Virus record (IMG/VR): IMGVR_UViG_3300030444_000103
Coordinates: 1-22,048 of that record
Strand: one strand, 5' to 3'
DNA: 22,048 nucleotides
DNA from: a virus
Taxonomy: Duplodnaviria > Heunggongvirae > Uroviricota > Caudoviricetes
The position numbers were made by a program, and so were the translations under genes. Within the stretch, counting starts at the first letter, position 1, and each line of letters opens with the position of its first letter. This document shows, piece after piece, positions 4,494-19,844 of this stretch. The notes under the pieces were generated by a model. The model searched no databases and was not told the origin of the DNA. It worked only from the letters and a program-made list of their open reading frames with translations.

Positions 4494-4662
4494 TTTTTGT
4501 TCAGCTAAATATAACATCAGTTTTGAAGAGCGGGATGAACTATTAATGGACTATGGTGAGTTACGCGGTGGAAGTGCTGCTGATGTCGAATCCTAGCGTG
4601 ATGACTATGAAGCGGGAAAAACTCCGGTCGAAGCATATTGTGATGAGTGGGGCGATGAATGA
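4471..4662 (+). pseudogene. Short ORF with an in-frame TAG at 4594-4596
   Basis: Hand translation: MRKNKVADFCSAKYNISFEERDELLMDYGELRGGSAADVES, stop, then RDDYEAGKTPVEAYCDEWGDE; its TGA overlaps the next ATG (ATGA). Confidence 0.3.
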
Positions 4663-4946
4663 GCGAGATTAATTATCAGGAAGGGCATGAAACGGCGGGG
4701 CAAGCAAAACCAGTGACATGGCGATATCGCTACGTGAAAAAAGGCGTTACGGACTTTCAGGGGAAGTAGTGGTCTGGTGACTGGAAATATGTACCGAAAA
4801 AAGAGGATTGTAACGACAGGCCGAACTATCAAATTCAGGCCTTATTCACTGCCTCACCAGTCCCGGTTACATCAGAAGAATTGGTTAAAGCTGTGCACTT
4901 TTATGAACAACTAAAACGCGAAAATCCACCAACATCCGGCAACTAG
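4659..4946 (+). pseudogene. Short ORF with an in-frame TAG at 4767-4769
   Basis: Hand translation: MSEINYQEGHETAGQAKPVTWRYRYVKKGVTDFQGK, stop, then a 58-codon open stretch WSGDWKYVPKKEDCNDRPNYQIQALFTASPVPVTSEELVKAVHFYEQLKRENPPTSGN. Confidence 0.3.
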
Positions 4947-5200
4947 ATTAATGGGTTAACTATGTCGGTTAAACGACCAGCCAACTGAAAAAGCGGAAAC
5001 CTGATTACAGGTTGCCAGATAAGGCAATGAGCTACCTGGCGCGGAACGGACTGATAAGTATGGGGAATGTTTTACGATGAACCTTTAGACTAAAGAGTTT
5101 GTAACGCTATGTAAGTGATTTTTTCTGGTTTAGATATTTATATGTCCGGCCAAATTGAGGTGTGTTTAAATGTAATTGCACATTGATTGTAGGAGGAATA

Positions 5201-5380
5201 ATGAAAAACGCATTGCAGTTTTTGTTTGTTGCGTTCTGGTTGTTCGCATCATGTATGCCCATCATCTTCACAGCAAGGTATATGGAAAAAGTTGATGTTT
5301 TGATATTAATATTTGGATATATAAATGCCCTTTTTTTAGGGGTGTTCATGGCGGTCATGTGCATTGAATACTGGCGGTAA
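5201..5380 (+). CDS. Small hydrophobic (two-helix) membrane protein, 59 aa
   Basis: Strong SD AGGAGG 5 nt before ATG 5201 (inside track ORF 5162..5380); MKNALQFLFVAFWLFASCMPIIFTARYMEKVDVLILIFGYINALFLGVFMAVMCIEYWR; sits in an AT-rich island. Confidence 0.45.
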   Translation: MKNALQFLFVAFWLFASCMPIIFTARYMEKVDVLILIFGYINALFLGVFMAVMCIEYWR

Positions 5381-5559
5381 ATACAGCGAATTCCATTGGT
5401 TTAGTTGGATATTTACTGTGCTGGACAAAAACGGTTTGCGGGGAAATCTTAGTTAAGTAGAATGACTGCGGGTGCTTGAGGCTATCTGCCTCGGGCACGA
5501 ACACCAACGGCAGGTAGAGAAAAGCCCCAGTTAACATTACGCGTCCTGCAAGACGCTTA

Positions 5560-5640
5560 ACATTAATCTGAGGCCAATTTCATGCCAGACACATGTAGGT
5601 TAGCCTCTTACGTGCCGAAAGGCAAGGAGAAGCAGGCTAT
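5560..5640 (+). pseudogene. hok/gef-family 5' region remnant, cut at the start codon
   Basis: GCCTCTTACGTGCCGAAAGGCAAGGAGAAGCAGGCTAT matches the recalled hokC-type leader and SD and resembles the intact hokD start at 8941-8958; the coding sequence is absent after the start-codon position. Confidence 0.4.
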
Positions 5641-7127
5641 TGTTAACACCAAGCTGTAATGTCCCCTTTGAACCATTCTAAAATGTCCCCAGACAATTCT
5701 CTGGGGGATTTTTCATGACCAAAGAAACTGTTACGATGAGTCATAAGGAACTCCACCGACTTCAGATTATTCAGGAGTCAATTAATCGACATATTACTCA
5801 GGAACAAGCTGCGGCACGCATTGGCATTTCTATTCGGCAGGTTAAACGTCTGGTGCAACGGTATAGAAATGAAGGGCCTTCTGGTCTGGTTTCCCACCGA
5901 CGTGGAAAGCGTCCTAATAATTCCTTTTCTACTGAATTCAGAGCAACAGTAATTTTACTCCTCAAAGGCCGTTACGCTGATTTTGGACCTACGTTTGCGT
6001 GCGAAAAATTGCGCGAGATACACGGTTTATCTTTATCCGTTGAAACTCTCAGAAAGTGGATGATAGAAGAGGGGGGTATGGCGTGAACGCCGTCGTAAAA
6101 TTGCCCGTATATATCAACGCCGCATGCGACGACCATCTTACGGTGAACTGATCCAGATTGATGGCTCACCTCATGACTGGTTTGAAAATCGAGGCCCCAG
6201 ATGTACACTGATCGTTTTCATTGATGATGCCACCAGTGCGTTGATGGCGTTGCGTTTTGTGCCTGCTGAAACAACCCGGGCTTACATGGAAACCCTCCGG
6301 GGTTACCTTAATGATCATGGCGTACCGCTCGCTCTCTACTCTGATAGACACAGTATATTCAGGGTAAATAACCCAGAGCGGGAAGGTGAGCTGACCCAGT
6401 TCACTCGTGCGATAAAGACACTGGGCATCGAGCCAATCCATGCCAACAGCCCGCAGGCAAAAGGGCGGGTAGAGCGCGCCAATCAGACACTACAGGACAG
6501 GCTGGTCAAAGAAATGCGGCTTCAGAATATCAGTGATATTGAAACAGCAAATGCATGGTTGCCGACCTTTATTGAAGCCTATAACAACCGGTTCGCTACG
6601 TCGCCTCGTACTACTGATAATGCTCATCTTGATGTGCACCATTCTGAAGAGGAACTGGGTTATATCTTCAGCCTACAGGCGAAGCGCGTTCTGTCTAAAA
6701 ATCTCACTTTCCAGTACAAAAGCAGTGCGTTTCAGGTACGCAGTGAGGGCCGGGGATATCGACTTAGGCATTCGGTTGTTACTGTATGCGAGAACTTTGA
6801 CGGTGAAATTAACGTTCTGTATGACGGGAAAGCGCTGGGCTGGGAAAAGTATGTTGATGGCCCGGAGCCTATACCACTGGATGATGAAAAGAGTGTCCAT
6901 GAACGAGTGGATAATGCCCGTATTGATTTACGCTCAAAATACTATGTTAAACCTAAAGCTGACCATCCCTGGCTTACGCGCCGAACGCAAAGTCATCAGC
7001 AAGTTAAGCCCCCGAAGTTACCTAAAAAGAAGCCTGATCCCGATAAAAAAGATTGAAACCAAGATCGATTCGGTTGAGTGCATATCCATTCATAGGGTAG
7101 ATTCTTAAGTCGCGTTTCTGGTGTTCA
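5641..7127 (+). mobile_element. Insertion sequence with a DDE (rve) transposase, IS481/ISNCY-like; boundaries approximate
   Basis: Begins where hok homology ends; candidate imperfect terminal inverted repeats TGTTAACACCA (left) and TGAACACCA (right, reverse complement); no clear target-site duplication. Confidence 0.4.
5715..7056 (+). pseudogene. DDE transposase split into two ORFs by a frameshift in a G6 run (6071-6076)
   Basis: ORF 5715..6086 carries the N-terminal HTH; ORF 6124..7056 carries the integrase core; the alternative frame across the G run reads ...EEGVWRERRRKIARIYQRRMRRPSYGELIQ..., joining them. Confidence 0.7.
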
Positions 7128-7492
7128 TTTTCGGGTGGTTTGTTACTTGTTTTACCGGGGATATGCCAGAAACGCGCTGAGTCAGTCTGGGCGGTGCGCG
7201 TAATGAGGCGTTATGGTAAATAGCCTATGCTAATGTCCGCTAAGAGCAAGAAGCGGAAGTTGGCAGTTTTGTGGACTGTCCCCACAAAAGTGACTACAGA
7301 AATAGTTGCAATTCATAATTGATCATGGGTTGTCAGTTAAACTCGTGGCGATTTAAATAGACTAATTGGGAGTGCGTCCATTACTTATATCTTGTAATGT
7401 TAACTATCAGAAATGATACAAAGATAATATGTCTTTAAAGAAAAGGCTGATGGCGAAAAGTGGCCCGATGAGGGCCACAATACGGCTGTCAC

Positions 7493-7825
7493 TTAGACGT
7501 AAATATCAATGGTGCCAGCGGTATTTGTATCGTCTTTTTTCTCTTCTTTTTTATCAGGCTGAACTGTCGCGTCTTTATTCTTTTTCTCTGCCTGCTGCCT
7601 TAACAACTGCTCCAGTTGAGCCCTGAGGCTTTCAATTTGCTTCTGTACCAATGCAGCCATTTCTTTTTTCTGCTGTGTCGTCATCCCCTCTTCCGATGAG
7701 ATTTTCCCAAGCTTTTCAGTCAGCACCTGAATTTGTCTTGTGATTTTGGCTATTTCTGATGTTCCTTCCGGGGCGGAGTTGTTTGAAATAACGGTTGAGG
7801 TATTTCCCTGAATTGTGACAGACAT
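7493..7825 (-). CDS. flxA: FlxA-like protein (110 aa)
   Basis: 110-aa coiled-coil-like ORF matching the recalled size and context of Qin flxA; preceded by a sigma-28 promoter match. Confidence 0.65.
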   Translation of the reverse strand: MSVTIQGNTSTVISNNSAPEGTSEIAKITRQIQVLTEKLGKISSEEGMTTQQKKEMAALVQKQIESLRAQLEQLLRQQAEKKNKDATVQPDKKEEKKDDTNTAGTIDIYV

Positions 7826-7848
7826 AGATTTCTCCTTTTAAAAAAGCA

Positions 7849-7875
7849 CTATCGGCATGCACAAAAAAATCTTTA
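7849..7875 (-). promoter_or_regulatory. Sigma-28 (FliA) promoter for flxA
   Basis: Minus strand reads TAAAGATT-N11-GCCGATAG against consensus TAAAGTTT-N11-GCCGATAA, about 25 nt upstream of the start codon. Confidence 0.6.
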
Positions 7876-8320
7876 ATCGTATTTCTTGTGTCATTAATTG
7901 TTTGATGTTCAGATTGTTTTCCTCGCGGGCTGGCGCGCCTCAGAAAGTAAAGCTTGTTGACAGGGGTAAACGTTCGGCAATAATTTTCTGCCGCATGCGG
8001 GTGTTGCATAAAACGTGCTACGTTCCTTTATCGACAGGTCAGGTCACCGCTCACCCGCCGACGAGAAAGCAACACTGACATGCTAAAGCAAAAAATAGAT
8101 GAATAAGTTGAGTTGTGCATATGTAGCCTGACCGTCACAAAGTATATGGTGTCTGTACCAGTAAGATGATGGCCGGACTCTTTAAAAACGAGCTGACCTG
8201 CACAATACAGGATGGACTTAGCAATGGCTGCTCCTGGCACAAAGCGGACAGTGATCACCGTTCTTACGACTACTTTCTGACTTCCTTCGTGACTTGCCCT
8301 AAGCATGTTGTAGTGCGATA

Positions 8321-8346
8321 CTTGTAATGACATTTGTAATTACAAG
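8321..8346 (+). promoter_or_regulatory. relBE operator-like palindrome (relO)
   Basis: CTTGTAATGACATTTGTAATTACAAG just upstream of relB; matches the known pattern of TTGTAAT/ATTACAA repeats. Confidence 0.5.
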
Positions 8347-8357
8347 AGGTGTAAGAC

Positions 8358-8597
8358 ATGGGTAGCATTAACCTGCGTATTGACGATGAACTTAAAGCGC
8401 GTTCTTACGCCGCGCTTGAAAAAATGGGTGTAACTCCTTCTGAAGCGCTTCGTCTCATGCTCGAGTATATCGCTGACAATGAACGCTTGCCGTTCAAACA
8501 GACACTCCTGAGTGATGAAGATGCTGAACTTGTGGAGATAGTGAAAGAACGGCTTCGTAATCCTAAGCCAGTACGTGTGACGCTGGATGAACTCTGA
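8358..8597 (+). CDS. relB: RelB antitoxin
   Basis: 79 aa, MGSINLRIDDELKARSYAALEKMGVTPSEALRLMLEYIADNERLPF...; stop overlaps the relE ATG (TGATG). Confidence 0.85.
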   Translation: MGSINLRIDDELKARSYAALEKMGVTPSEALRLMLEYIADNERLPFKQTLLSDEDAELVEIVKERLRNPKPVRVTLDEL

Positions 8598-8884
8598 TGG
8601 CGTATTTTCTGGATTTTGACGAGCGGGCACTAAAGGAATGGCGAAAGCTGGGCTCGACGGTACGTGAACAGTTGAAAAAGAAGCTGGTTGAAGTACTTGA
8701 GTCACCCCGGATTGAAGCAAACAAGCTCCGTGGTATGCCTGATTGTTACAAGATTAAGCTCCGGTCTTCAGGCTATCGCCTTGTATACCAGGTTATAGAC
8801 GAGAAAGTTGTCGTTTTCGTGATTTCTGTTGGGAAAAGAGAACGCTCGGAAGTATATAGCGAGGCGGTCAAACGCATTCTCTGA
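8597..8884 (+). CDS. relE: RelE mRNA-interferase toxin
   Basis: 95 aa, MAYFLDFDERALKEWRKLGSTVREQLKKKLVEVLESPRIEANKLRGMPDCYKIKLRSSGYRLVYQVIDEKVVVFVISVGKRERSEVY... Confidence 0.85.
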   Translation: MAYFLDFDERALKEWRKLGSTVREQLKKKLVEVLESPRIEANKLRGMPDCYKIKLRSSGYRLVYQVIDEKVVVFVISVGKRERSEVYSEAVKRIL

Positions 8885-8955
8885 ACCAAAGCATGACATC
8901 TCTGTTTCGCACCGAAGGTGACACTTCTGCTTTGCGTTGACAGGAGAAGCAGGCT

Positions 8956-9111
8956 ATGAAGCAGCAAAAGGCGATGTTAATCGCCCTGATCGTCATCTGT
9001 TTAACCGTCATAGTGACGGCACTGGTAACGAGGAAAGACCTCTGCGAGGTACGAATCCGAACCGGCCAGACGGAGGTCGCTGTCTTCACAGCTTACGAAC
9101 CTGAGGAGTAA
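8956..9111 (+). CDS. hokD: HokD (RelF) type I toxin, 51 aa
   Basis: Hand translation: MKQQKAMLIALIVICLTVIVTALVTRKDLCEVRIRTGQTEVAVFTAYEPEE; below the ORF-track cutoff. Confidence 0.85.
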   Translation: MKQQKAMLIALIVICLTVIVTALVTRKDLCEVRIRTGQTEVAVFTAYEPEE

Positions 9112-9178
9112 GAGACCCGGCGGGGGAGAAATCCCTCGCCACCTCTGATGTGGCAGGCATCCTCAACGCACCCGCACT

Positions 9179-9207
9179 TAACCCGCTTCGGCGGGTTTTT
9201 GTTTTTA
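9179..9207 (+). terminator. Rho-independent terminator after hokD
   Basis: ACCCGCTTCGGCGGGT hairpin followed by a T-run. Confidence 0.6.
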
Positions 9208-9327
9208 TTTTCAACGCGTTTGAAGTTCTGGACGGTGCCGGAATAGAATCAAAAATACTTAAGTAGCGCGCAGGGATAAGAGGGATGGTCCCTTAAAGGG
9301 GAGAGCTAATTATCCGGAAGGATTCTG

Positions 9328-9579
9328 ATGATGAACATCGAAGAACTGCGTAAAATTTTTTGTGAAGATGGCCTCTATGCTGTGTGCGTTGAAAATGGAA
9401 ATCTTGTTAGTCATTACCGCATTATGTGTTTGCGAAAGAATGGGGCTGCGTTAATTAATTTTGTGGATGCTCGGGTCACGGACGGATTTATCTTGCGCGA
9501 AGGTGAGTTTGTCACTTCATTACAGGCATTGAAAGAGATCGGAATAAAAGCTGGCTTTTCTGCTTTTTCAGGAGAATAA
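9328..9579 (+). CDS. Rem-like small prophage protein (83 aa)
   Basis: ORF with GGAAGGA SD; size and position after hokD match Qin rem; the rem sequence itself is not recalled. Confidence 0.5.
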   Translation: MMNIEELRKIFCEDGLYAVCVENGNLVSHYRIMCLRKNGAALINFVDARVTDGFILREGEFVTSLQALKEIGIKAGFSAFSGE

Positions 9580-9645
9580 ACTCATCTACAATCTTGCGCG
9601 GGGCTGAACTCCCGCTGAGTAACACCGTGCCACCGGAGAAAACCG

Positions 9646-9924
9646 ATGGCACGCAACGCAAAATATTACAATTCTGATAATTCGCCCGTTCTTGCCTGCA
9701 CGCACGGGCGGTATTCTCACGCATTCAAGTCTGAATGGTTCCAGCACCCTCCATGCACTGCAGAACAGGCCGAATGGCTGATTCATTCTTACCGCAGGCG
9801 CGGGTTCGAGGTTAAGAAAGCTCTCAGTCTCGACTATCGGCACTGGATAATCTCTGTCAGGCTGCCTTATTCCGAACGCCCACCACGTGCGTCCCGCACT
9901 TTCCAGCAACGGATCTGGAGGTAA
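9646..9924 (+). CDS. Hypothetical protein (92 aa), translationally coupled to the next gene
   Basis: GGAGAAAACCG before the ATG; TAA at 9922-9924 is followed 1 nt later by the GTG start of the downstream gene. Confidence 0.4.
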   Translation: MARNAKYYNSDNSPVLACTHGRYSHAFKSEWFQHPPCTAEQAEWLIHSYRRRGFEVKKALSLDYRHWIISVRLPYSERPPRASRTFQQRIWR

Positions 9925-9925
9925 C

Positions 9926-10975
9926 GTGCGGGTATTACTTAGACCTGTTCTGGTGCCTGAGCTTGGGCTGGTGGTCCTTAAGCCGGGCCGTGAATCCATA
10001 CAGATATTTCATAATCCTCGAGTGCTGGTGGAACCGGAACCAAAAAGCATGCGTAATCTGCCATCCGGAGTCGTTCCTGCCGTTCGCCAGCCGCTGGCGG
10101 AAGACAAAACATTGCTGCCGTTTTTTAGTAACGAACGGGTGATTCGTGCTGCTGGCGGCGTTGGCGCATTGTCCGACTGGCTATTACGTCATGTTACATC
10201 CTGCCAGTGGCCTAATGGCGATTACCATCACACTGAAACAGTCATTCACCGTTATGGTACCGGCGCAATGGTGTTGTGCTGGCACTGCGACAACCAACTG
10301 CGTGACCAGACATCGGAATCACTGGAGCTGCTTGCTCAACAAAATCTGACAGCATGGGTGATTGACGTCATCCGTCACGCAATAAGCGGTACGCAGGAGC
10401 GGGAATTATCTTTGGCTGAATTATCCTGGTGGGCGGTCTGCAATCAGGTGGTGGATGCACTACCTGAGGCTGTATCGCGTCGTTCGCTGGGATTACCAGC
10501 GGAAAAAATCTGCTCGGTGTACCGCGAAAGCGACATCGTACCGGGAGAGCAGACCGCCACCAGCATATTGAAACAACGCACAAAAAATCTTGCACCGTTG
10601 CCTTACGCCCACCAGCAACAAAAATCACCACAGGAAAAGACGGTGGTAAGCATCACCGTTGATCCAGAGTCTCCGGAATCTTTCATGAAGCTGCCTAAAC
10701 GTCGCCGCTGGGTTAAGGAGAAATACACACGTTGGGTTAAGACACAGCCGTGTGCTTGCTGCGGTATGCCAGCCGACGATCCGCATCATCTGATTGGTCA
10801 CGGGCAGGGCGGAATGGGAACAAAAGCACATGATCTCTTTGTGTTGCCTTTGTGCAGAAAGCATCACAACGAGCTGCATACGGATACAGTGGCATTTGAA
10901 GATAAGTATGGCTCCCAACTGGAGCTGATATTTCGTTTTATCGATCGCGCGCTGGCAATTGGCGTACTGGCGTAA
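9926..10975 (+). CDS. YdfU-like DUF968 protein with a C-terminal Cys/His (HNH-like) motif, 349 aa
   Basis: Track ORF 9887..10975; GTG at 9926 after GGAGGT; C-terminus ...QPCACCGMPADDPHHLIGHGQGGMGTKAHDLFVLPLCRKHHNELH... Confidence 0.6.
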   Translation: MRVLLRPVLVPELGLVVLKPGRESIQIFHNPRVLVEPEPKSMRNLPSGVVPAVRQPLAEDKTLLPFFSNERVIRAAGGVGALSDWLLRHVTSCQWPNGDYHHTETVIHRYGTGAMVLCWHCDNQLRDQTSESLELLAQQNLTAWVIDVIRHAISGTQERELSLAELSWWAVCNQVVDALPEAVSRRSLGLPAEKICSVYRESDIVPGEQTATSILKQRTKNLAPLPYAHQQQKSPQEKTVVSITVDPESPESFMKLPKRRRWVKEKYTRWVKTQPCACCGMPADDPHHLIGHGQGGMGTKAHDLFVLPLCRKHHNELHTDTVAFEDKYGSQLELIFRFIDRALAIGVLA

Positions 10976-10988
10976 GTGGAGAACGAGC

Positions 10989-11741
10989 ATGAACCTTGAA
11001 GCCTTACCAAAATATTACTCCCCAAAATCTCCAAAATTGAGCGATGACGCTCCAGCGACAGGCACCGGTTGTTTAACAATTACGGATGTAATGGCAGCGC
11101 AGGGGATGGTGCAGTCGAAAGCACCACTTGGGTTGGCCTTATTTCTGGCAAAAGTTGGTGTTCAGGACCCTCAGTTTGCGATTGAAGGCCTGCTAAATTA
11201 CGCGATGGCACTGGATAACCCGACATTGAACAAATTGAGTGAAGAAATCCGGTTACAGATTATTCCTTACCTCGTGAGTTTTGCCTTTGCTGATTACTCC
11301 AGGTCTGCGGCAAGTAAGGCTCGCTGTGAGCATTGTTCAGGTACGGGATTTTATAATGTATTGCGCGAAGTGGTGAAACACTACAGACGCGGGGAATCTG
11401 TAATCAAGGAAGAATGGGTGAAGGAACTATGTCAGCATTGCCATGGTAAGGGCGAAGCCAGCACAGCGTGCAGAGGGTGTAAGGGTAAAGGGATTGTTCT
11501 GGATGAAAAAAGAACCCGGTTTCATGGCGTACCGGTATATAAGATTTGTGGGCGTTGTAATGGAAACCGGTTTAGTCGTTTACCGACCACGCTGGCACGA
11601 CGTCATGTCCAGAAGCTGGTACCAGACCTGACCGATTATCAGTGGTATAAGGGGTATGCGGACGTCATTGGTAAACTGGTAACAAAGTGCTGGCAGGAAG
11701 AAGCATACGCGGAAGCGCAATTGAGGAAGGTGACGAGATAA
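10989..11741 (+). CDS. Late-gene antiterminator Q (phage 82 / QuuQ-like), 250 aa
   Basis: Track ORF 10959..11741 with ATG 10989 after GGAG; several CxxC pairs; size and sequence match the recalled Qin QuuQ. Confidence 0.8.
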   Translation: MNLEALPKYYSPKSPKLSDDAPATGTGCLTITDVMAAQGMVQSKAPLGLALFLAKVGVQDPQFAIEGLLNYAMALDNPTLNKLSEEIRLQIIPYLVSFAFADYSRSAASKARCEHCSGTGFYNVLREVVKHYRRGESVIKEEWVKELCQHCHGKGEASTACRGCKGKGIVLDEKRTRFHGVPVYKICGRCNGNRFSRLPTTLARRHVQKLVPDLTDYQWYKGYADVIGKLVTKCWQEEAYAEAQLRKVTR

Positions 11742-11772
11742 ATGATTTTTGCTGAAGATGGCGACATGATGT

Positions 11773-11801
11773 TTGCATTTTTCAAAAAATATGGATAAAA
11801 T
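11773..11801 (+). promoter_or_regulatory. pR'-like late promoter
   Basis: TTGCAT-N17-TAAAAT immediately downstream of Q. Confidence 0.55.
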
Positions 11802-11846
11802 TTTTTCAACGATGGGCTTTGTATACCCGACGTTAAGAAAAAGTAG

Positions 11847-11872
11847 AAAACCCGCTGATGAGCGGGTTTTGT
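11847..11872 (+). terminator. tR'-like intrinsic terminator
   Basis: AAAACCCGCT-GATG-AGCGGGTTTT hairpin about 45 nt downstream of the promoter -10. Confidence 0.6.
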
Positions 11873-12162
11873 GCTTTAAATGGGGCAATGGTAATGTTGA
11901 ATCTCATCCCGGGACTCATGTCTGTTAACTTATTATTTAGCTGGTGACTTGGTTATTTGCCTGATGTTTAAAATGTTTTCTTCCAGTACAATGTCCCTAA
12001 ACACAATGAGTCTGCTTATTATATTATTAGCAGAGCTATTACGGCCAAAGTACAGCATAAGCTTTTAAAGCCAATCAACCAGTCATCAAGACAGACGGGG
12101 TTATTCATAAAAACTCTCCATGTGTGATCCGATGGGGCCTGAAATTAAAGCTTTAATATAGC

Positions 12163-12375
12163 TCATGAAAGGTAAACATTGGCAGCTGAAGGGCCACGCA
12201 GACCATTTATCCGGCAAAATTCCACGCGTAATCCGGTGGTAATTTCTTCTGCATCGCGGAGATTGAGCGCTGAGACATGAAGCTGGACATCGATACGACC
12301 ATCGGATGGGGTGATAAGACCCTTGCCGCTTTTGCCGTCAAAGGTTTTGACAATTCCTGTCATTTTACGGGACAA
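12163..12375 (-). CDS. cspF: Cold-shock-domain protein, CspF/CspH-like
   Basis: 70 aa, [26 protein letters not shown]...[16 protein letters not shown]. Confidence 0.8.
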
Positions 12376-12675
12376 AAAAATTCCTTAATACTGATAACTT
12401 GGCGCACTATACACACGTTCCTGAAGAAAGCTATAGTTTTTTGATGGGGTTGAAGATGGCTGGATGTCTAAAATAAACATTGCTTCATATGTTCAACTAT
12501 GCGTTAATGATTGCGTCGGTTTGAAGAACAGACGATATACGAAGTAGTTTACTAAAGCAGTTCTCATTTCAGGTGTTATTCACTTATTCCTTCTTTGAGT
12601 CTCTCCAATTAAGTACGAAGTCGTTTCTGTTATGCAAACCATTTATGCCGAAAGGCTCAAGTTAAGGAATGTAGA

Positions 12676-12891
12676 ATGTCAAATAAAATGACTGGTTTAG
12701 TAAAATGGTTTAACGCTGATAAAGGTTTCGGCTTTATTTCTCCTGTTGATGGTAGTAAAGATGTGTTTGTGCATTTTTCTGCGATTCAGAATGATAATTA
12801 TCGAACCTTATTTGAAGGTCAAAAGGTTACCTTCTCTATAGAGAGTGGTGCTAAAGGTCCTGCAGCAGCAAATGTCATCATTACTGATTAA
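12676..12891 (+). CDS. cspB: Cold-shock protein, CspB-like
   Basis: 71 aa, [38 protein letters not shown]...; divergent from the cspF-like gene. Confidence 0.85.
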
Positions 12892-13173
12892 AATTCATCG
12901 CTCGTCTGTATACGATAACGAAGAAGGCTGATGCCTGAGTAGAGATACGGACAGAGTAGTGAATATTGGATCTCTTTAATAAAAAGTAAGGAGGTCCAAT
13001 ACATGAAACAATGGCTAGCATATTTGGCAAAATCTTAATCAGGAAAAGTATGCTAACCATTGTGGTGAAGTGCAGGTTTGCTGCATGAATAGTTTTACAG
13101 CAGAAGCTAACTGCTGGCATGGCAAAACAAAGTGCGTAAGTGGATGACTCCCACAAAAAGCACCACAATCTCA

Positions 13174-13197
13174 AACCCGCTCAGGCGGGTTTTTTAT
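13174..13197 (+). terminator. Intrinsic terminator
   Basis: AACCCGCTCAGGCGGGTT hairpin followed by TTTTTT. Confidence 0.55.
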
Positions 13198-13254
13198 TAT
13201 CTGCTTTAAATATATTATTAAAATATAAAAAATACTTGTTACTAATAAAATCAA

Positions 13255-13425
13255 TCAGGCTACAGCTTTAAGATTTGTCTGGAATACTTTGTTGCAATGA
13301 GGGCAGATCAAAAGGGCACCTTTTTGTACTCTTGAAAAACTGTGTTCTGACTCTTGGGTGCAGTTTGGGCAGGAACATTTAACGAGATAATTACGGCGTG
13401 ATTTTGAGTTTTTACGTTCTGACAT
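13255..13425 (-). CDS. Small zinc-ribbon protein (56 aa)
   Basis: Internal ATG of track ORF 13255..13476 with AGGAAA SD; MSERKNSKSRRNYLVKCSCPNCTQ...ICPHCNKVF carries paired Cys motifs. Confidence 0.4.
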   Translation of the reverse strand: MSERKNSKSRRNYLVKCSCPNCTQESEHSFSRVQKGALLICPHCNKVFQTNLKAVA

Positions 13426-13644
13426 AGGCTTTTCCTGTATAAATGGCCGTATACAGTACACTAAATATGAAAACATTTCTCGTATTATTATTTTATATAT
13501 GACTTTCTTTCAAAATAATTACCCACATTTTTAATGTGTATGTTTTTTTAGCGCCGTTGAGAACAACGTGTGCTGTCAAAACTACCCCGTAGACTCCGAT
13601 CTTTTCAAACATATTGCACCATCCGTGTACATCGGGGTGAGGAT

Positions 13645-13860
13645 ATGAAATCAATGGATAAGTTAACAACAGGTGTTGCCTATGGCACATCGGCGGGTAA
13701 TGCTGGTTTCTGGGCATTGCAGTTACTCGATAAAGTAACTCCGTCACAGTGGGCTGCAATCGGTGTGCTGGGTAGCCTGGTTTTTGGCCTGCTGACGTAT
13801 CTGACAAATCTTTATTTCAAGATTAAAGAAGACAGGCGTAAGGCTGCGAGAGGAGAGTAA
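13645..13860 (+). CDS. Pinholin (phage 21 S-like), 71 aa, dual-start motif
   Basis: [71 protein letters not shown] after GGGGTGAGG; close to recalled S21. Confidence 0.8.
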
Positions 13861-13864
13861 TCCA

Positions 13865-14172
13865 ATGACTCAAGACTATGAACTGGTTGTGAAAGGAGTC
13901 CGTAATTTTGAGAATAAAGTTACGGTAACTGTAGCCTTACAGGACAAAGAACGCTTTGACGGTGAAATTTTTGACCTGGATGTCGCCATGGACCGTGTTG
14001 AAGGAGCTGCGCTGGAGTTTTATGAGGCAGCAGCCAGAAGGAGCGTCCGGCAAGTCTTCCTGGAAGTAGCAGAAAAATTGTCAGAAAAAGTTGAGTCTTA
14101 TCTGCAGCATCAGTACTCCTTTAAGATTGAAAATCCTGCCAATAAGCACGAGCGTCCTCATCATAAATATAT

Positions 14173-14176
<4 letters not shown>
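13865..14176 (+). CDS. YdfR-like hypothetical protein (103 aa) between holin and endolysin
   Basis: 103-aa ORF; its stop overlaps the endolysin ATG (ATGA); same size and position as ydfR in Qin. Confidence 0.55.
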
Positions 14177-15200
<1,024 letters not shown>

Positions 15201-15563
15201 GGTAATATTAAATCGGAACATTTACATCGCGGAATGTAAAATTTAAATAAAAAGGACTCTTCCATGAGCCAAAATTCCTGAAATCTTAAGGGTAAGATAA
15301 AAGGTCTTAATCAGAATGACACGTTATTATTAATAAATAAAGCTATTCTTTCATTGCTGTGTTTTTCTTTACAAAAGTAATCCTTGCTATGGGTGGTTAA
15401 TCATGCGTTAATGGTGTTCTGGTTTGTTACAAATTTATCTGAAGCAGTCATTGTTATAATTTTATTATTTGTACCTCTTGAGATTTCCTTGTTGGTTTTT
15501 CTCTCTGATATTTTTTTTCGGACCATTCTGCCCAAGGGCTAATTTCTTCAAAAGGTAATAATT

Positions 15564-15776
15564 ATGTCTAACAAAATGACTGGTTTAGTGAAATGGTTTA
15601 ACCCTGAAAAAGGTTTTGGTTTCATCACGCCGAAAGATGGCAGCAAAGATGTGTTTGTCCATTTCTCAGCAATTCAGAGCAACGATTTCAAAACATTAAC
15701 TGAGAATCAGGAAGTTGAATTTGGTATTGAGAACGGACCTAAAGGTCCTGCCGCTGTTCATGTAGTGGCGCTTTGA
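15564..15776 (+). CDS. cspI: Cold-shock protein, CspI-like
   Basis: 70 aa, [45 protein letters not shown]...; long AT-rich 5' leader. Confidence 0.8.
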
Positions 15777-15981
15777 GGTAGACAATATTACAAACCATAT
15801 TCACTTTAGATGCCCGTGTTGTCATGGTTCCCAGTATAGAACATCATCTTTTGATGTTTCTGACATGAATCCTTTCGGGGCAAAATGTATCTTTTGTAAA
15901 TCAATGATGATTACATTTGATAATATTTCACAATACTTAAATGCCAGCCGTCTGTCGTTGGATTTAAAAAAGTGAAAATGA

Positions 15982-16003
15982 AGGCTCCTTCGGGAGCTTT
16001 TTT
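15982..16003 (+). terminator. Intrinsic terminator
   Basis: AGGCTCC-TTCG-GGAGCTT hairpin followed by TTTTTT. Confidence 0.5.
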
Positions 16004-16047
16004 GCTTGGTATCTATTCGATGGATACTCACATACTACGGTAACATC

Positions 16048-16278
16048 ATGAAAAAAATCATAGTTTTTTTTAACTCTGAACCTGCAGTGGTAGTGCCAGC
16101 GATGACTGGAGTTAACACCATCATGCGTGAATATCCAAATGGCGAAAAAACACACCTTACTGTAATGGCCGCAGGGTTTCCATCTCTGACCGGAGATCAT
16201 AAAGTCATTTATGTAGCCGCGGATCGACATGTTACTTCAGAAGAAATTCTGGAAGCAGCAATAAGGCTCTTGAGTTGA
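16048..16278 (+). CDS. Hypothetical protein (76 aa)
   Basis: ATG inside track ORF 16006..16278; weak RBS. Confidence 0.35.
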   Translation: MKKIIVFFNSEPAVVVPAMTGVNTIMREYPNGEKTHLTVMAAGFPSLTGDHKVIYVAADRHVTSEEILEAAIRLLS

Positions 16279-16449
16279 TTTGATGCTATTGTATTGATAA
16301 TTCAGGAAAATTTTCTTTGTCTGTTTGTGTAAAATTTAGACTATCGTATGTTGATTATTGCGATGTTTCATCTTATCTTTTACACGTTTGCACCATATAA
16401 TCGACTTACTGTGTAACTGGAAAGTCATAACAGACTAAAAGAGGAAATG

Positions 16450-16623
16450 ATGAATATTGAAAACTTAAAAACAAAAGCAGAAGCAGATATTTCTGAATAT
16501 ATAACAAAAAAAATTATTGAACTTAAGAAAAAGACCGGGAAAGAAGTTACCAGTATTCAGTTTACCGCACGGGAAAAAATGACGGGTCTTGAAAGCTATG
16601 ATGTCAAGATTAATTTAATCTGA
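16450..16623 (+). CDS. gnsB: GnsA/GnsB-family protein (57 aa)
   Basis: Hand translation MNIENLKTKAEADISEYITKKIIELKKKTGKEVTSIQFTAREKMTGLESYDVKINLI, close to recalled GnsB; below the ORF-track cutoff. Confidence 0.75.
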   Translation: MNIENLKTKAEADISEYITKKIIELKKKTGKEVTSIQFTAREKMTGLESYDVKINLI

Positions 16624-16774
16624 TGTATTCAATAATAAAATTTATCCATAAACCTCGTTTTTACGGGGTTTTGTTATATTTGAATGGTTCCGAATATCTA
16701 AATCACAATTGTTGATGGTTTTTATTAAACCAATGCAGTCCGGCTCAGGAGTGAGAGAAGCCGGACGTTATGGT

Positions 16775-17185
16775 TTAGCGTGGTAAGATCTGTGTAGTTT
16801 TCTGGATGCTTTCAGTAAATAGTAATGAATTATCAAAGGTATAGTAATATCTTTTTTGTTCGTGGATATTTGTAACCCACCGAAAAACTCCTGCTTTAGC
16901 AAGGTTTCTTCTGTATTCCTGAAATGTGATCTCTCTGGATTTCAGCTTATTAGAGGTCGTTTCTATAAGATGCCTATCCTTTGAAAATTTGACAGACACA
17001 ATGTTTTTTAGGCCCTTTAATAACACTGTATTATCATTTTTTAATACAATATGAACATTCTCTGTGGCTAAATAGTAAATGTAATGTGAGACATTGTGAC
17101 GTTTTAGCTCAGAATAAAACCATTGATAGTTTAAATCGTTTCGAACTTTATCAAATATTTGTTTAAAAATGACTACCTGATCCAT
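16775..17185 (-). CDS. YdfO/YbcV-like DUF1398 prophage protein
   Basis: Track ORF 16775..17200; internal ATG at 17185 with GGAAGG SD gives 136 aa. Confidence 0.6.
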
Positions 17186-17242
17186 AGATAAACCTTCCAT
17201 GTGATATGAGGGGGCGTAGTCTGCACGATTATCTAAATTGCT

Positions 17243-17476
17243 TCAATCTGGTCTGACCTGTTTTCTGAGCAATTCAGTAATGTCACTCTTTTCTTTGTTT
17301 GCTTCAGAAGAAACTCTTTTTTCTGAGCACAGTCTCCGGCGGCAGGCTTCAATGACCCAGGCTGAGAAATTCCCGGACCCTTTTTGCTCAAGAGCGATGT
17401 TAATTTGTTCAATCATTTGGTTAGGAAAGCGGATGTTGCGGGTTGTTGTTCTGCGGGTTCTGTTCTTCGTTGACAT
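17243..17476 (-). CDS. Ribbon-helix-helix (Arc/MetJ-like) DNA-binding protein, 77 aa, possibly YnfO-like
   Basis: Basic N-terminus followed by NIRFPNQMIEQINIALEQKG, the RHH pattern. Confidence 0.5.
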   Translation of the reverse strand: MSTKNRTRRTTTRNIRFPNQMIEQINIALEQKGSGNFSAWVIEACRRRLCSEKRVSSEANKEKSDITELLRKQVRPD

Positions 17477-17584
17477 GAGGTTGTCCCGTATTCAGTGTCG
17501 CTGATTTGTATTGTCTGAAGTTGTTTTTACGTTAAGTTGATGCAGATCAATTAATACGATATCTGCGTCGGTAATGACTCCAAC

Positions 17585-18088
17585 TTATTGATAGTGTTTT
17601 ATGTTCAGATAATGCCCGATGACTTTGTCATGCAGCTCCACCGATTTTGAGAACGACAGCGACTTCCGTCCCAGCCGTGCCAGGTGCTGCCTCAGATTCA
17701 GGTTATGCCGCTCAATTCGCTGCGTATATCGCTTGCTGATTACGTGCAGCTTTCCCTTCAGGCGGGATTCATACAGTGGCCAGCCATCCGTCATCCATAT
17801 CACCACGTCAAAGGGTGACAGCAGGCTCATAAGACGCCCCAGCGTCGCCATAGTGCGTTCACCGAATACGTGCGCAACAACCGTCTTCCGGAGCCTGTCA
17901 TACGCGTAAAACAGCCAGCGCTGGCGCGATTTAGCCCCGACGTATCCCCACTGTTCGTCCATTTCCGCGCAGACGATGACGTCACTGCCCGGCTGTATGC
18001 GCGAGGTTACCGACTGCGGCCTGAGTTTTTTAAATGGCGGAAAATCGTGTTGAGGCCAACGCCCATAATGCGGGCGGTTGCCCGGCAT
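17585..18088 (-). CDS. insB: IS1 InsB (the -1 frameshift partner that makes InsAB')
   Basis: 167-aa ORF overlapping insA in the -1 frame, the standard IS1 arrangement. Confidence 0.85.
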
Positions 18089-19769: not shown

Positions 19770-19844
19770 TGGTGTCCCCTGCAGGAATCGAACCTGCAAT
19801 TAGCCCTTAGGAGGGGCTCGTTATATCCATTTAACTAAGAGGAC
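19770..19844 (-). tRNA. argW: tRNA-Arg (anticodon CCU)
   Basis: Reverse complement GTCCTCTTAGTTAAATGGATATAACGAGCCCCTCCTAAGGGCTAATTGCAGGTTCGATTCCTGCAGGGGACACCA folds as a cloverleaf with anticodon CCT and an encoded CCA. Confidence 0.9.

What the first reader, a model, noticed from the sequence alone, without database searches (positions are those of the whole stretch)
11742..13200. Cold-shock genes inserted between Q and the lysis cassette, behind a pR'/tR' pair
Downstream of Q there is a strong sigma-70 promoter (TTGCAT-N17-TAAAAT) and, about 45 nt later, an intrinsic terminator, the lambda pR'-6S-tR' architecture. A divergent cspF/cspB pair then separates Q from the holin, and cspI follows the lysis genes. 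After cspB, a near-perfect SD (AAGGAGGT, about 12987-12994) precedes an 11-codon mini-ORF (ATG about 13003).
Basis: partly seen in the sequence, partly recalled or inferred. Interest (0 to 1): 0.4.

Follow-up and report, generated by a model that had tools for sequence, protein, structure and literature searches.

The report
Qin prophage late promoter and csp cargo
This is the well-known late-gene control region of the E. coli Qin-type lambdoid prophage, a lambda-style Q/pR'/tR' switch with cold-shock genes carried as cargo; the proposed 11-codon mini-gene is not real and instead overlaps an unannotated, conserved structured RNA that phage lambda also carries just after its own tR'.

Summary
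The sequence features are all present within 1 nt of the stated coordinates. The window is a Qin-type prophage: 100% identical to E. coli IAI1 over about 1500-17660 and collinear with K-12 Qin.

The pR'/tR' reading is well supported.
- Q (ydfT/quuQ) is a lambda-Q homologue.
- The promoter has exactly lambda's geometry: -35, 17 nt, -10, 6 nt, then AACGATGGG.
- The promoter-pause-terminator module is conserved in SfV, mEp460, Ayreon and Stx2 phages. Homology stops at the terminator, after which each phage carries different cargo.
- K-12 Term-seq shows an RNA 3' end at window 11874.
- The transcription start is not verified.

cspF, cspB and cspI are known annotated genes.

The SD/mini-ORF reading is not supported.
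- AAGGAGGT is one arm of a 14-bp hairpin.
- The strongest RNA 3' end of the locus falls inside the ATG.
- The ORF is absent or broken in relatives.

What lies downstream of cspB is a conserved structured RNA, made of hairpin H1 and a P1-P5 domain, with 11 covarying pairs. It has no Rfam match. Relatives sit directly after tR' in lambda and next to tRNA genes in other phages.

Overall this is an ordinary known locus with one unexplained RNA element.

The parts
10989..11741 (+). Q antiterminator gene (ydfT/quuQ), 250 aa. The mechanical ORF starts at TTG 10959.
   Evidence: Pfam PF03589 Antiterm, E 4e-54, plus a DnaJ-type CXXCXGXG finger. PDB 7UBM lambda Q, E 4.6e-36; the match is in two stretches that flank a roughly 40-aa extra zinc-finger insert. 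RefSeq annotation.
11773..11801 (+). Late promoter pR': -35 TTGCAT (11773-78), 17-nt spacer (11779-95, candidate Q-binding element), -10 TAAAAT (11796-801).
   Evidence: Sequence. The geometry is the same as lambda's TTGACT-17-TAAATT. The -35 is invariant and the spacer nearly invariant in 9 phage lineages, while the Q 3' codons vary.
11808..11816 (+). -10-like sigma70 pause-inducing element AACGAT followed by the GGG discriminator. The predicted transcription start is 11808 and the predicted pause is at about 11823-11824.
   Evidence: Identical nonamer at the identical distance (6 nt) from the -10 as in lambda. GGG is at +7 to +9 and the pause at +16/+17 in lambda (PMC5001585). AACGATGGGCTTTGTAT is invariant in 8 of 9 lineages; 2H10 has one substitution, outside the nonamer.
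11808..11874 (+). Predicted short terminated leader RNA of about 67 nt, the counterpart of lambda 6S RNA and StxS.
   Evidence: The 3' end at K-12 1642356(-) corresponds to window 11874 and was seen in three growth conditions (Adams et al. 2021, Suppl. file 1). The 5' end is inferred only. The fold is -30.4 kcal/mol, z -6.1.
11847..11870 (.). tR' intrinsic terminator hairpin, bidirectional by sequence.
   Evidence: Conserved in 9 lineages, with compensatory or wobble stem changes in sal3 and F1055. Annotated as a terminator in SfV and Ayreon. Homology to cargo-free relatives ends here. The upstream A-tract that makes it work in reverse is present only in the csp-bearing lineage.
12019..12108 (-). 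ynfS small protein gene, downstream of cspF.
   Evidence: RefSeq K-12 b4750 and its IAI1 homologue.
12163..12375 (-). cspF
   Evidence: Pfam CSD, E 5.6e-22. Annotation.
12515..12675 (+). cspB 5'UTR, a cspA-type thermoregulator. It contains a premature 3' end at 12596.
   Evidence: Rfam RF01766, 158.8 bits, over 12515-12907. Term-seq 3' end at 1641634(-), and Rho-dependent termination reported for cspB.
12676..12891 (+). cspB
   Evidence: Pfam CSD, E 1e-31. Annotation.
12904..12952 (+). H1: a conserved hairpin in the cspB 3' region with the conserved internal loop CGAyAACGAwGA / CUGAGUAGAC.
   Evidence: Alignment A4 of 13 lineages: 12 pairs, 8 of them with changes on both sides. Absent from the PHB10-type lineage.
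12965..13000 (+). H2: a 14-bp hairpin whose 3' arm is the 'SD' AAGGAGGU. It is followed by the dominant RNA 3' end at 13004-13006.
   Evidence: Fold. Term-seq 1641224/1641226(-), scores 0.6-2.5 million, in three conditions. Specific to the Qin lineage.
13003..13038 (+). I judge it not to be a gene.
   Evidence: It overlaps the 5' arm and loop of P1. It is absent from PHB10, Cyrano and chromosomal relatives. Variants within the lineage are L>P, K>I, S>T, S>P and W4>stop. None of the searched coordinate prefixes covering it, nor 'cspB', occurs in the Ribo-seq supplement of Stringer et al..
13013..13169 (+). Conserved structured RNA domain: P1 (13013-21/13050-58), P2 (13059-67/13161-69), P3 (13070-75/13081-86), P4 (13098-103/13111-16, invariant loop AAGCUAA), invariant AAAGUGCGUAAG (13129-40), and P5 (13140-43/13151-54).
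   Evidence: 22 distinct sequences, 32 pairs, 97.4% paired. 11 pairs change on both sides, against 5.2 +/- 1.3 in shuffles (0 of 500); slid controls give at most 5. The covariance model scores 154.9 bits here and 33.4 bits (E 1.5e-6) on lambda 44782-44946. No Rfam match.
13173..13192 (.). Second intrinsic terminator, after the structured RNA.
   Evidence: Read backwards, it ends the ynfU transcript (Term-seq 1641060(+) = window 13170). No + strand 3' end is listed there at 37 C.
13255..13425 (-). ynfU zinc-ribbon small protein
   Evidence: Pfam PF23499, E 6e-31. Annotation. Weaver et al. preprint.
13645..15200 (+). Lysis cassette: essQ holin, ydfR, rrrQ lysozyme, rzpQ with embedded rzoQ.
   Evidence: Pfam. 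Annotation.
15418..15776 (+). cspI with its cspA-type 5'UTR
   Evidence: Rfam RF01766, 112.8 bits. Pfam CSD.

Best explanation
The region is the late-gene switch of a Qin-type lambdoid prophage, and it works like lambda's.

A sigma70 promoter (pR', 11773-11801) lies 32 nt after the Q gene. By analogy with lambda it starts transcription at about 11808. The first six transcribed bases (AACGAT, followed by GGG) re-bind sigma70 and pause RNA polymerase at about +16/+17.

Without Q, the polymerase terminates at the hairpin 11847-11870 and releases an RNA of about 67 nt that ends at 11874. With Q bound to the promoter spacer and loaded onto the paused polymerase, transcription would read through this terminator. 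It would then pass the cargo (antisense across ynfS-cspF, sense across cspB and its 3' region), the second terminator (13173-13192) and ynfU (antisense), and reach the lysis genes and cspI.

cspF, cspB and cspI are cargo (moron) genes with their own control. cspB and cspI carry the cspA-type cold-responsive 5'UTR.

The 310 nt after cspB do not encode a peptide. They are a conserved structured RNA consisting of H1, a lineage-specific hairpin H2 and a P1-P5 multi-helix domain. H2, whose arm mimics an SD, marks the main stable RNA 3' end, most likely as a barrier to 3' exonucleases. The P1/P2 scaffold is the same element that follows tR' in lambda and other lambdoid phages. I infer that it is a cis-acting processing or stability module of the late leader that was co-opted as the cspB 3'UTR.

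Shown: the sequence anatomy, the homologies, the covariation and the RNA 3' ends. Inferred: the start site, the pause, Q binding and read-through, and the function of the RNA.
For: Q protein:
- Homologous to lambda Q: PDB 7UBM E 4.6e-36, Pfam PF03589 E 4e-54.

Promoter:
- Geometry -35/17/-10/6/AACGATGGG is identical to lambda.
- The roles of AACGAT and of GGG at +7 to +9, and the pause at +16/17, are established for lambda (PMC5001585; PMC4604602).
- Promoter, spacer and pause element are almost invariant in nine lineages, whereas the Q 3' codons vary.

Terminator and module boundary:
- The stem is kept through compensatory or wobble changes.
- Homology with SfV, mEp460, Ayreon, sal3 and Stx2 phages ends exactly at the terminator, and different genes follow it.
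- Phages L232 and L279 have a lambda-geometry pR' (TTGATT-17-TAGATT-6-AACGATGGG), a short leader, tR', the P1/P2 element and then an EssQ-type holin, with no csp.
- K-12 Term-seq 3' end at 1642356(-) = window 11874 in three conditions.

csp genes:
- cspB and cspI 5'UTRs match RF01766 at 158.8 and 112.8 bits.

RNA after cspB:
- z -6.3 for 12892-13200.
- 11 of 32 covarying pairs in P1-P5 and 8 of 12 in H1.
- The covariance model hits lambda at 44782-44946, right after tR'.
- The element is always downstream of a cspB/G-like gene in more than 150 loci.
- The Term-seq 3' end at 13004-13006 is the strongest in the locus.
Against: - No transcription start data could be reached for about 1642422(-).
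- The 3' end at 11874 could belong to the ydfU-ydfT (Q) mRNA rather than to a pR' transcript.
- The + strand U-tract of tR' is weaker here (UUUUGUGCUUU) than in cargo-free relatives (7 U).
- Term-seq shows a late-strand 3' end at 12042 in one condition, so termination at tR' may be leaky.
- The promoter motif alone is not above chance.
- The spacer shows no similarity to the lambda Q-binding element.
- Qin Q carries an extra zinc finger of unknown effect.
- No + strand 3' end was seen at the second terminator at 37 C, so the P1-P5 domain may be rare or unstable under those conditions.
- The function of the RNA is entirely inferred. The link to RNase III processing of the lambda late leader rests on my recollection of Daniels et al. 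1988; only the title could be confirmed here.
Confidence: 0.8

Rival explanations
1. The promoter-like hexamers are an inactive relic. The hairpin at 11847-11870 simply terminates the Q (ydfU-ydfT) operon on one strand and the convergent cspF-ynfS transcript on the other. No short pR' RNA is made in this prophage.
For: The hairpin is bidirectional, and the A-tract needed for reverse use occurs only in csp-bearing lineages. It lies 106 nt after the Q stop codon and about 150 nt after ynfS. Term-seq gives only 3' ends. No transcription start was found in any reachable data set. The promoter motif is not above chance.
Against: The promoter, spacer and pause element are more conserved than the adjacent Q coding sequence across nine lineages, including SfV, mEp460, Ayreon and the Stx2 phages. 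The nonamer AACGATGGG sits exactly where lambda has it. No minus-strand (K-12 +) 3' end is listed at the hairpin. The same segment, 100% identical, is present in a record deposited as a phage genome, PhiR42_1.
Confidence: 0.12
2. The 11-codon ORF (13003-13038) behind AAGGAGGT is a translated leader peptide or micro-protein, for example one expressed only in the cold or after induction.
For: A perfect 8-nt SD with 7-nt spacing to the ATG. Available ribosome profiling was done at 37 C, where cspB is poorly expressed, so that negative result is weak.
Against: - The SD is sequestered in a 14-bp hairpin.
- The dominant 3' end lies inside the ATG.
- The ATG and SD are absent from PHB10-type, Cyrano-type and chromosomal homologues of the same region.
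- Within the Qin lineage the variants are L>P, K>I, S>T, S>P and a stop at codon 4, and the SD mutates to GGAGAT.
- The codons lie in the covarying P1 stem.
- One exact octamer in 22 kb is expected in 37% of shuffles.
Confidence: 0.04
3. The conserved RNA after cspB (H1 + P1-P5) is not a passive processing or stability module. It is a regulatory RNA in its own right: a trans-acting sRNA, a protein decoy (for example tRNA-like), or a conformational switch that senses temperature or Csp proteins.
For: - Invariant single-stranded AAAGUGCGUAAG and invariant P4 loop AAGCUAA across genera.
- Relatives of the P1/P2 scaffold sit inside phage tRNA arrays, directly abutting tRNA 3' or 5' ends.
- The segment GUUGUG can pair either with an upstream CACAAC or with a downstream CACAAC, which looks like an alternative-pairing switch.
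- The csp-type variant is strictly linked to a Csp gene, and CspA-family proteins are RNA chaperones and antiterminators (established knowledge).
Against: - No own promoter is evident, and no 3' end is seen at its terminator at 37 C.
- The invariant segments show no complementarity above shuffled controls to the cspB or cspI 5'UTRs, cspF, ynfU, the essQ start region or the pR' leader.
- ARAGORN and Rfam tRNA models do not recognise it.
- No experimental data exist.
Confidence: 0.25

Closest known systems
Phage lambda late control module (Q, qut/pR', 6S RNA, tR')
   Same: The Q protein is homologous. The promoter lies just after Q. The spacing is identical and the pause-inducing AACGATGGG lies at +1 to +9. 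An intrinsic terminator lies downstream, and lysis genes lie further on. A P1/P2-type structured element lies in the late leader.
   Different: The leader RNA is about 67 nt, not 194 nt. The terminator is bidirectional. Qin Q has an extra DnaJ-type zinc finger of about 40 aa. The spacer (putative Q-binding element) is unrelated in sequence. 1.3 kb of csp cargo and a second terminator lie between tR' and the holin. Nothing has been tested biochemically.
Stx-phage pR'/tR' with the StxS small RNA and stx cargo (Sy et al. 2020, PMC7547250)
   Same: A constitutive late promoter is terminated just downstream during lysogeny, giving a short RNA. Cargo genes (stx there, csp here) lie between tR' and the lysis genes. 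Some Stx2 phages share this very Q/pR'/tR' module at 82-83% identity.
   Different: StxS is processed from a transcript of at least about 250 nt and binds Hfq. Nothing of the kind is known for the 67-nt Qin RNA. Here part of the cargo is antisense to late transcription, and it has its own cold-shock control.
Phage 82 pR'
   Same: The same logic: a Q-dependent, sigma70-paused late promoter.
   Different: The phage 82 pause element lies 9 bp further downstream, with pauses at +25/+26 (PMC5001585). The Qin promoter follows the lambda layout, not the 82 layout. I believe, from my own knowledge and not tested here, that the Q proteins of phages 82 and 21 belong to different protein families.
CspA-family cold-shock genes with the cspA thermoregulator (Rfam RF01766); the chromosomal cspH-cspG pair
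   Same: cspB and cspI have CSD proteins and full-length RF01766 matches. The divergent cspF/cspB pair mirrors cspH/cspG. cspI-ynfQ-ynfR-ynfN-gnsB mirrors cspG-ymcF-ymcE-gnsA.
   Different: cspB has a structured region of about 310 nt between its stop codon and the terminator. The covariance model does not find this region downstream of K-12 cspG or of cspI. cspF gives only a weak partial RF01766 match (14 bits).
Lambda late-leader region 44782-44946, between tR' and S
   Same: Covariance-model match, E 1.5e-6, retaining P1, P2, a P4-like hairpin (loop AAGCAGAA), AAAUGCGUAC and P5. Many lie directly after a terminator with Q upstream and a holin downstream.
   Different: Lambda lacks P3, and the insert inside P2 is variable in the family (65-300 nt). 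The csp-type variant has its own invariant motifs and is tied to a csp gene. RNase III processing of the lambda late leader (Daniels et al. 1988) is recalled from memory. Only the title was seen here, and its sites were not mapped onto this structure.

Membership tests
Lambda-type Q / pR' (qut) late antitermination module | Antiterminator homologous to lambda Q, encoded immediately upstream. | tested here: met
   PDB 7UBM/4MO1 lambda Q, E 4.6e-36 and 1e-23. Pfam PF03589, 181 bits against a cut-off of 26.7.
Lambda-type Q / pR' (qut) late antitermination module | Sigma70 promoter followed by a -10-like pause-inducing element at +1 to +6 and a GGG discriminator at +7 to +9. | tested here: met
   TTGCAT-17-TAAAAT-6-AACGATGGG in the window, against TTGACT-17-TAAATT-6-AACGATGGG in lambda. 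The role of these elements is given in PMC5001585. This is met at sequence level only; the pause itself was not observed.
Lambda-type Q / pR' (qut) late antitermination module | Q-binding element between the -35 and -10 hexamers. | tested here: inconclusive
   The spacer TTTTCAAAAAATATGGA is nearly invariant in nine lineages, which fits a protein site. It is unrelated to the lambda spacer, and binding cannot be tested with these tools.
Lambda-type Q / pR' (qut) late antitermination module | Intrinsic terminator shortly downstream that yields a short RNA in the absence of Q. | tested here: met
   Hairpin, dG -23.9, z -6.9. Conserved with compensatory changes. Term-seq 3' end at window 11874 in K-12. 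The 5' end of that RNA is not established.
Lambda-type Q / pR' (qut) late antitermination module | Q-dependent read-through of the terminator into the lysis and late genes. | not testable with these tools
   This needs in vitro transcription or Q induction with RNA-seq. The only support is gene order and the occurrence of the same module in deposited phage genomes.
CspA-family cold-shock genes | Cold-shock domain protein of about 70 aa. | tested here: met
   PF00313 for cspF (77.8 bits), cspB (109.1 bits) and cspI (108.4 bits).
CspA-family cold-shock genes | Long cspA-type 5'UTR thermoregulator (RF01766). | tested here: met
   cspB 158.8 bits and cspI 112.8 bits, against a gathering score of 78. 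cspF gives only 14.1 bits, which does not meet it.
Translated small ORF / leader peptide | SD and start codon accessible on an existing transcript. | tested here: not met
   The SD is paired in a 14-bp hairpin. The dominant 3' end at 13004-13006 cuts the ATG.
Translated small ORF / leader peptide | Conservation of the reading frame, with purifying selection. | tested here: not met
   Absent outside the Qin lineage. Within the lineage, only replacement and nonsense variants were seen.
Translated small ORF / leader peptide | Ribosome-profiling or tagging evidence. | tested here: inconclusive
   None of the searched coordinate prefixes covering it, nor 'cspB', occurs in the supplement of Stringer et al.. 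That work was done at 37 C.
Any Rfam 15 RNA family (for the RNA after cspB) | Covariance-model score at or near the gathering threshold. | tested here: not met
   The best sub-threshold hits are terminator-driven: Trp_leader 21.7, isrK 18.3, AaHKsRNA82 22.5 bits. Nothing was found for the lambda-type relatives either. ARAGORN finds no tRNA there.
Conserved structured RNA (generic criterion) | Base pairs maintained by compensatory changes above controls. | tested here: met
   P1-P5: 11 pairs with double changes against 5.2 +/- 1.3 in shuffles, 0 of 500 reaching it; slid controls give at most 5; 97.4% paired. H1: 8 of 12 pairs. Extended P1 in the lambda-type family: 9 of 18 pairs.

The most novel reading that the evidence does not exclude
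The RNA downstream of cspB (H1 plus P1-P5) and its relatives form an undescribed family of modular structured RNAs in enterobacterial phages. The relatives include the element directly after tR' in lambda and other lambdoid phages, and the copies that abut tRNA genes in D6, Klebsiella and other phages. All share a constant P1/P2 scaffold, in which GUUGUG can pair with either of two flanking CACAAC copies, around a variable insert. The family would act as a regulated processing or folding switch at the start of late mRNAs. In its csp-linked form it would couple cspB mRNA fate to temperature or to Csp proteins.
Probability: 0.3. Interest if true: 0.6.

Novelty: new member of a known kind. Interest (0 to 1): 0.3.

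Why it matters
The main finding changes little. It shows that the Qin prophage, present in about 30% of complete E. coli genomes in this form (1617 of 5426), keeps an apparently intact lambda-type late switch. It also shows that cspF and cspB sit in the classic cargo slot after tR', the slot that holds stx in Shiga-toxin phages. That makes two predictions testable:
- a constitutive RNA of about 67 nt, analogous to StxS;
- Q-driven expression of cspB, the lysis genes and cspI.

The useful by-product is negative for the mini-ORF, which should not be annotated, and positive for an unannotated RNA. A covarying structure of about 270 nt is tied to cspB-like genes across Enterobacteriaceae, and it is related to an element in the lambda late leader. 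It coincides with the most abundant RNA 3' end of the locus in published K-12 data. If it has a function, it would be a new handle on cold-shock mRNA control and on late-transcript processing in lambdoid phages.

Tried and rejected
- Transcription start evidence for pR'. The Thomason 2015 paper is not held. The Rend-seq annotation paper and the nascent-RNA paper have no supplements held. The Cappable-seq and RNET-seq supplements contain no coordinate near 16424xx. The question remains unresolved.
- Ribosome-profiling support for the mini-ORF. No entry in Stringer et al.. The Weaver et al. preprint has no supplement held. The PIRT-seq supplement only lists cspB by name.
- Known RNA families. 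Rfam gave nothing relevant in the finding's region beyond the cspA element, either at gathering thresholds or at E <= 5. The two isrK matches (16.6 and 18.3 bits, against a gathering score of 50) are terminator-driven.
- IpeX analogy (DLP12). nmpC is on the opposite strand, and the covariance model finds nothing in DLP12.
- tRNA-like reading of P2-P5. The P4 loop AAGCUAA contains GCU, and relatives abut tRNA-Ser(gct). However, ARAGORN and the Rfam tRNA model do not recognise it, and helix spacing does not fit a cloverleaf. Not adopted.
- Protein-coding reading of the conserved core. The frames are short and shifted by an indel in Cyrano, and conservation extends beyond any ORF.
- Base-pairing of the invariant segments with the cspB or cspI 5'UTRs, cspF, ynfU, the essQ start region or the pR' leader. 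Not better than shuffled targets.
- Literature search for the invariant strings and for 'cspB 3'UTR'. Nothing relevant was found.
- A second copy of the element near cspI or K-12 cspG. None found.
Full report
**Identity of the locus.** The segment 11500-13700 is 100% identical to many E. coli chromosomes, among them IAI1. It covers at least 80% of the query in 1617 of 5426 complete genomes. RefSeq annotation of IAI1 and of K-12 MG1655 gives the following order: relB-relE-hokD-rem-ydfU-ydfT(Q), then ynfS and cspF on the opposite strand, then cspB, ynfU (opposite strand), the lysis genes essQ-ydfR-rrrQ-rzpQ/rzoQ, and cspI-ynfQ-ynfR-ynfN-gnsB. This is the cryptic prophage Qin. K-12 coordinates convert as 1654230 minus the window coordinate, with no indels across the region. 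The window equals IAI1 only over about 1500-17660. Pfam confirms the proteins. Records deposited as phage genomes (PhiR42_1, HannyBb, PhiR63_1, 2H10, Tritos) carry the same Q-cspF-cspB-holin arrangement.

**Check of the observation.** All the elements exist.
- TTGCAT lies at 11773-78, followed by 17 nt and TAAAAT at 11796-801.
- A 10-bp GC-rich hairpin lies at 11847-11870.
- AAGGAGGT lies at 12988-12995, the ATG at 13003, and 11 codons run to 13038.

Motif statistics alone are weak. Promoter-like sites number 11 against 9.9 +/- 2.7 expected, and the SD octamer is expected 0.53 times. The hairpin is strong (dG -23.9, z -6.9). The scan calls it on the minus strand because its + strand U-tract is UUUUGUGCUUU.

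**Is it a pR'/tR' pair?** Four independent lines say yes.

1. The upstream protein is a lambda-Q homologue (7UBM E 4.6e-36, PF03589 E 4e-54), with an extra DnaJ-type zinc finger inserted.
2. Read directly from the lambda genome, pR' is TTGACT-17-TAAATT-TGACTC-AACGATGGG. The window has TTGCAT-17-TAAAAT-TTTTTC-AACGATGGG. In lambda, AACGAT is the -10-like element that re-binds sigma70, GGG is its discriminator at +7 to +9, and the pause is at +16/+17. Phage 82 has this element 9 bp further downstream (PMC5001585; PMC4604602). The Qin promoter therefore follows the lambda layout. That predicts a start at 11808 and a pause at about 11823-24.
3. The stretch 11700-11870 is 80-85% identical in SfV, mEp460, Ayreon, Salmonella phage 118970_sal3 and many Stx2 phages.
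   - The match ends at the terminator.
   - In the nine-way alignment the -35, the spacer, the pause element and the following GCTTTGTAT are almost invariant, while the last Q codons vary.
   - The terminator stem is kept with different letters in sal3 and F1055.
   - The annotators of SfV and Ayreon marked the same hairpin as a terminator.
   - After it each phage carries different genes before the holin: a methylase, small ORFs, or tRNAs plus stx2.
4. The Term-seq tables of Adams et al. 2021 list a 3' end at 1642356(-) in all three growth conditions. Its flanking 61-mer matches the window exactly, and the position is window 11874, i.e. ...GCGGGUUUUGUGC.

The predicted terminated RNA is about 67 nt, against 194 nt for lambda 6S RNA.

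Several caveats apply.
- I could not reach any transcription start table, so the 3' end might belong to the Q mRNA.
- The hairpin is bidirectional by sequence, and its upstream A-tract exists only in csp-bearing lineages. This fits a second role for the convergent cspF-ynfS unit, although no 3' end on that strand is listed.
- A late-strand 3' end at 12042 in one condition suggests some read-through.

**Cargo.** cspB and cspI carry full-length matches to the cspA thermoregulator (158.8 and 112.8 bits). A premature 3' end in the cspB 5'UTR (window 12596) and Rho-dependent termination of cspB are reported by Adams et al.. 'Inserted between Q and the lysis cassette' is a fair description, for two reasons. 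Relatives with a lambda-geometry pR' and a similar short leader and terminator go straight from tR' to an EssQ-type holin (L232, L279). The cspF-cspB-ynfU cassette also occurs in other contexts: phage PHB10, the Cyrano phage-plasmid, and the chromosomes of Kosakonia, Enterobacter, Kluyvera and others.

**The SD and mini-ORF.** This reading fails on five counts.
- The 309 nt from the cspB stop codon to the next terminator fold far better than shuffles (z -6.3). AAGGAGGU is the 3' arm of a 14-bp hairpin, H2, at 12965-13000.
- Term-seq shows the strongest 3' end of the whole locus at 1641224/1641226(-), window 13004-13006. That is 4-6 nt after H2 and inside the ATG. Its scores are 0.6-2.5 million, against 0.05-0.12 million at tR'.
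- The ATG and SD are absent from the homologous region in PHB10-type, Cyrano-type and chromosomal loci.
- Inside the Qin lineage the variants seen are L>P, K>I, S>T, S>P, a stop at codon 4, and GGAGGT>GGAGAT.
- No entry near these coordinates appears in a small-ORF ribosome-profiling supplement. This is a weak negative, since that work was done at 37 C.

**What is there instead.** Alignment of 22 distinct sequences gave a consensus structure:
- a hairpin P1;
- a stem P2 that closes three hairpins, P3 to P5;
- an invariant P4 hairpin, GCAGAAGCUAACUGC;
- an invariant single-stranded AAAGUGCGUAAG.

Of 32 pairs, 97.4% of cells are paired. Eleven pairs change on both sides, against 5.2 +/- 1.3 in shuffles (0 of 500 reach it) and at most 5 when partners are slid. 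Upstream, hairpin H1 (12904-12952) is also conserved. Eight of its 12 pairs covary, and it has a conserved internal loop. The csp-type element is always downstream of a cspB/G-like gene. Rfam has nothing for it, and no paper in the library contains its invariant strings.

**Link to lambda.** A covariance model built from this alignment finds no second copy in the window, in K-12 cspG, or in the SfV-type phages. It does hit lambda at 44782-44946 (33.4 bits, E 1.5e-6), directly after tR' and before S. That hit keeps P1, P2, a P4-like hairpin, AAAUGCGUAC and P5.

A pattern for the shared scaffold (CACAACAGGT...CCGTTGTGNTGAA) recovers more than 120 further viral contigs. In these, P1's base and P2 are constant, the P2 pair at the N position varies as C-G, G-C or A-U, and the insert ranges from 65 to about 300 nt. 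Of the 123 loci with a match:
- about 53 follow a T-stretch, and about 41 of those have a lambda- or Qin-type Q upstream and/or a holin downstream;
- about 39 follow a tRNA gene directly, and about 10 precede one.

The element follows tR' behind at least three sequence-distinct late promoters. RNAalifold on the P1 region also pairs the upstream CACAAC with GUUGUG (9 of 18 pairs covary). GUUGUG therefore has two alternative partners.

I recall that RNase III processing sites were mapped in the lambda late leader (Daniels et al. 1988). Only the title could be confirmed here, so any equation with P1 is an inference.

**Mechanism, with status.**
- Shown: the anatomy, the homologies, the covariation and the RNA 3' ends.
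- Inferred from the established lambda mechanism: the start at 11808, the sigma70 pause, termination at 11874 without Q, and Q-dependent read-through to the lysis genes and cspI, passing antisense over ynfS-cspF and ynfU.
- Inferred with low confidence: H2 acts as an exonuclease barrier that defines the stable 3' end, and H1 and P1-P5 are a cis-acting processing or stability module shared with lambdoid late leaders. A regulatory role (a switch, a decoy or a small RNA) is not excluded.
- Complementarity tests of the invariant segments against nearby mRNAs were negative.

**Verdict.** The pR'/tR' assignment is a new member of a known kind and lacks only start-site and Q-dependence data. The mini-ORF should be dropped. 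The one thing worth following up is the conserved RNA after cspB and its lambda and tRNA-array relatives.

Noticed in passing
window 12892-13200 (+); lambda 44782-44946 (L165 983-1147): An unannotated conserved structured RNA (H1, P1-P5) lies after cspB. It is not in Rfam 15.
   Followed up: yes
window 13004-13006 (+) = K-12 1641224/1641226 (-): The most abundant Term-seq 3' end of the locus (0.6-2.5 million) has no U-tract and lies just after the Qin-specific hairpin H2. The 5' end and origin of this RNA are unknown. It may be a stable fragment derived from the cspB 3'UTR.
   Followed up: partly
window 12042 (+) = K-12 1642188 (-): A late-strand RNA 3' end lies beyond tR', antisense to ynfS, after the small hairpin CTGCT...AGCAG. 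It appears in one growth condition only. It suggests leaky termination at tR' or another start site.
   Followed up: no
window 13173-13192: The second terminator shares AAACCCGC...GCGGGTTTT and the following TGCTTTAAAT with tR' (direct repeats D1 and D4, spacing about 1325-1330 nt). It therefore brackets the csp cargo. The ynfU transcript ends at it in reverse (Term-seq 1641060(+)).
   Followed up: partly
window 13050-13088 (+): A tiny frame, ATG...TGA (MLTIVVKCRFAA), preceded by AGGA at 13041-44, is open in the lineages I inspected by eye. It lacks a conserved SD and lies inside P1/P2/P3.
   Followed up: no
window 13001-13012 / 13059-13067 / 13161-13169; lambda-type loci L165-L292: GUUGUG can pair with a CACAAC copy on either side, giving extended P1 or P2. 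This is a possible alternative-structure switch conserved in both element types.
   Followed up: partly
window 5470-5641 (+): A Sok antitoxin RNA (RF01794, 99.8 bits) lies next to hokD, with relBE just upstream. This is known Qin content.
   Followed up: no
window 19770-19844 (-) and the window ends (<1500, >17660): A tRNA-Arg(cct) gene is present, and the sequence differs from IAI1, where IAI1 has nohA, terminase and portal genes. The window comes from a related but different Qin-type prophage or strain.
   Followed up: no
window 15418-16278 (+): cspI carries its own cspA-type 5'UTR and is followed by ynfQ, ynfR and ynfN. A ynfN-like gene also follows the cspB-type cassette in other genera, so these look like parts of one mobile cold-shock island.
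   Followed up: partly
L168 (phage D6) 2086-2206: A near-threshold STnc100 match (39.6 bits against 47) lies next to a copy of the second half of the lambda element, downstream of tRNA-Ser.
   Followed up: no
L146 (Raoultella lignicola): A tandem expansion of an 8-nt unit, (CCTGAAAG)n, lies inside the element between P3 and P4.
   Followed up: no
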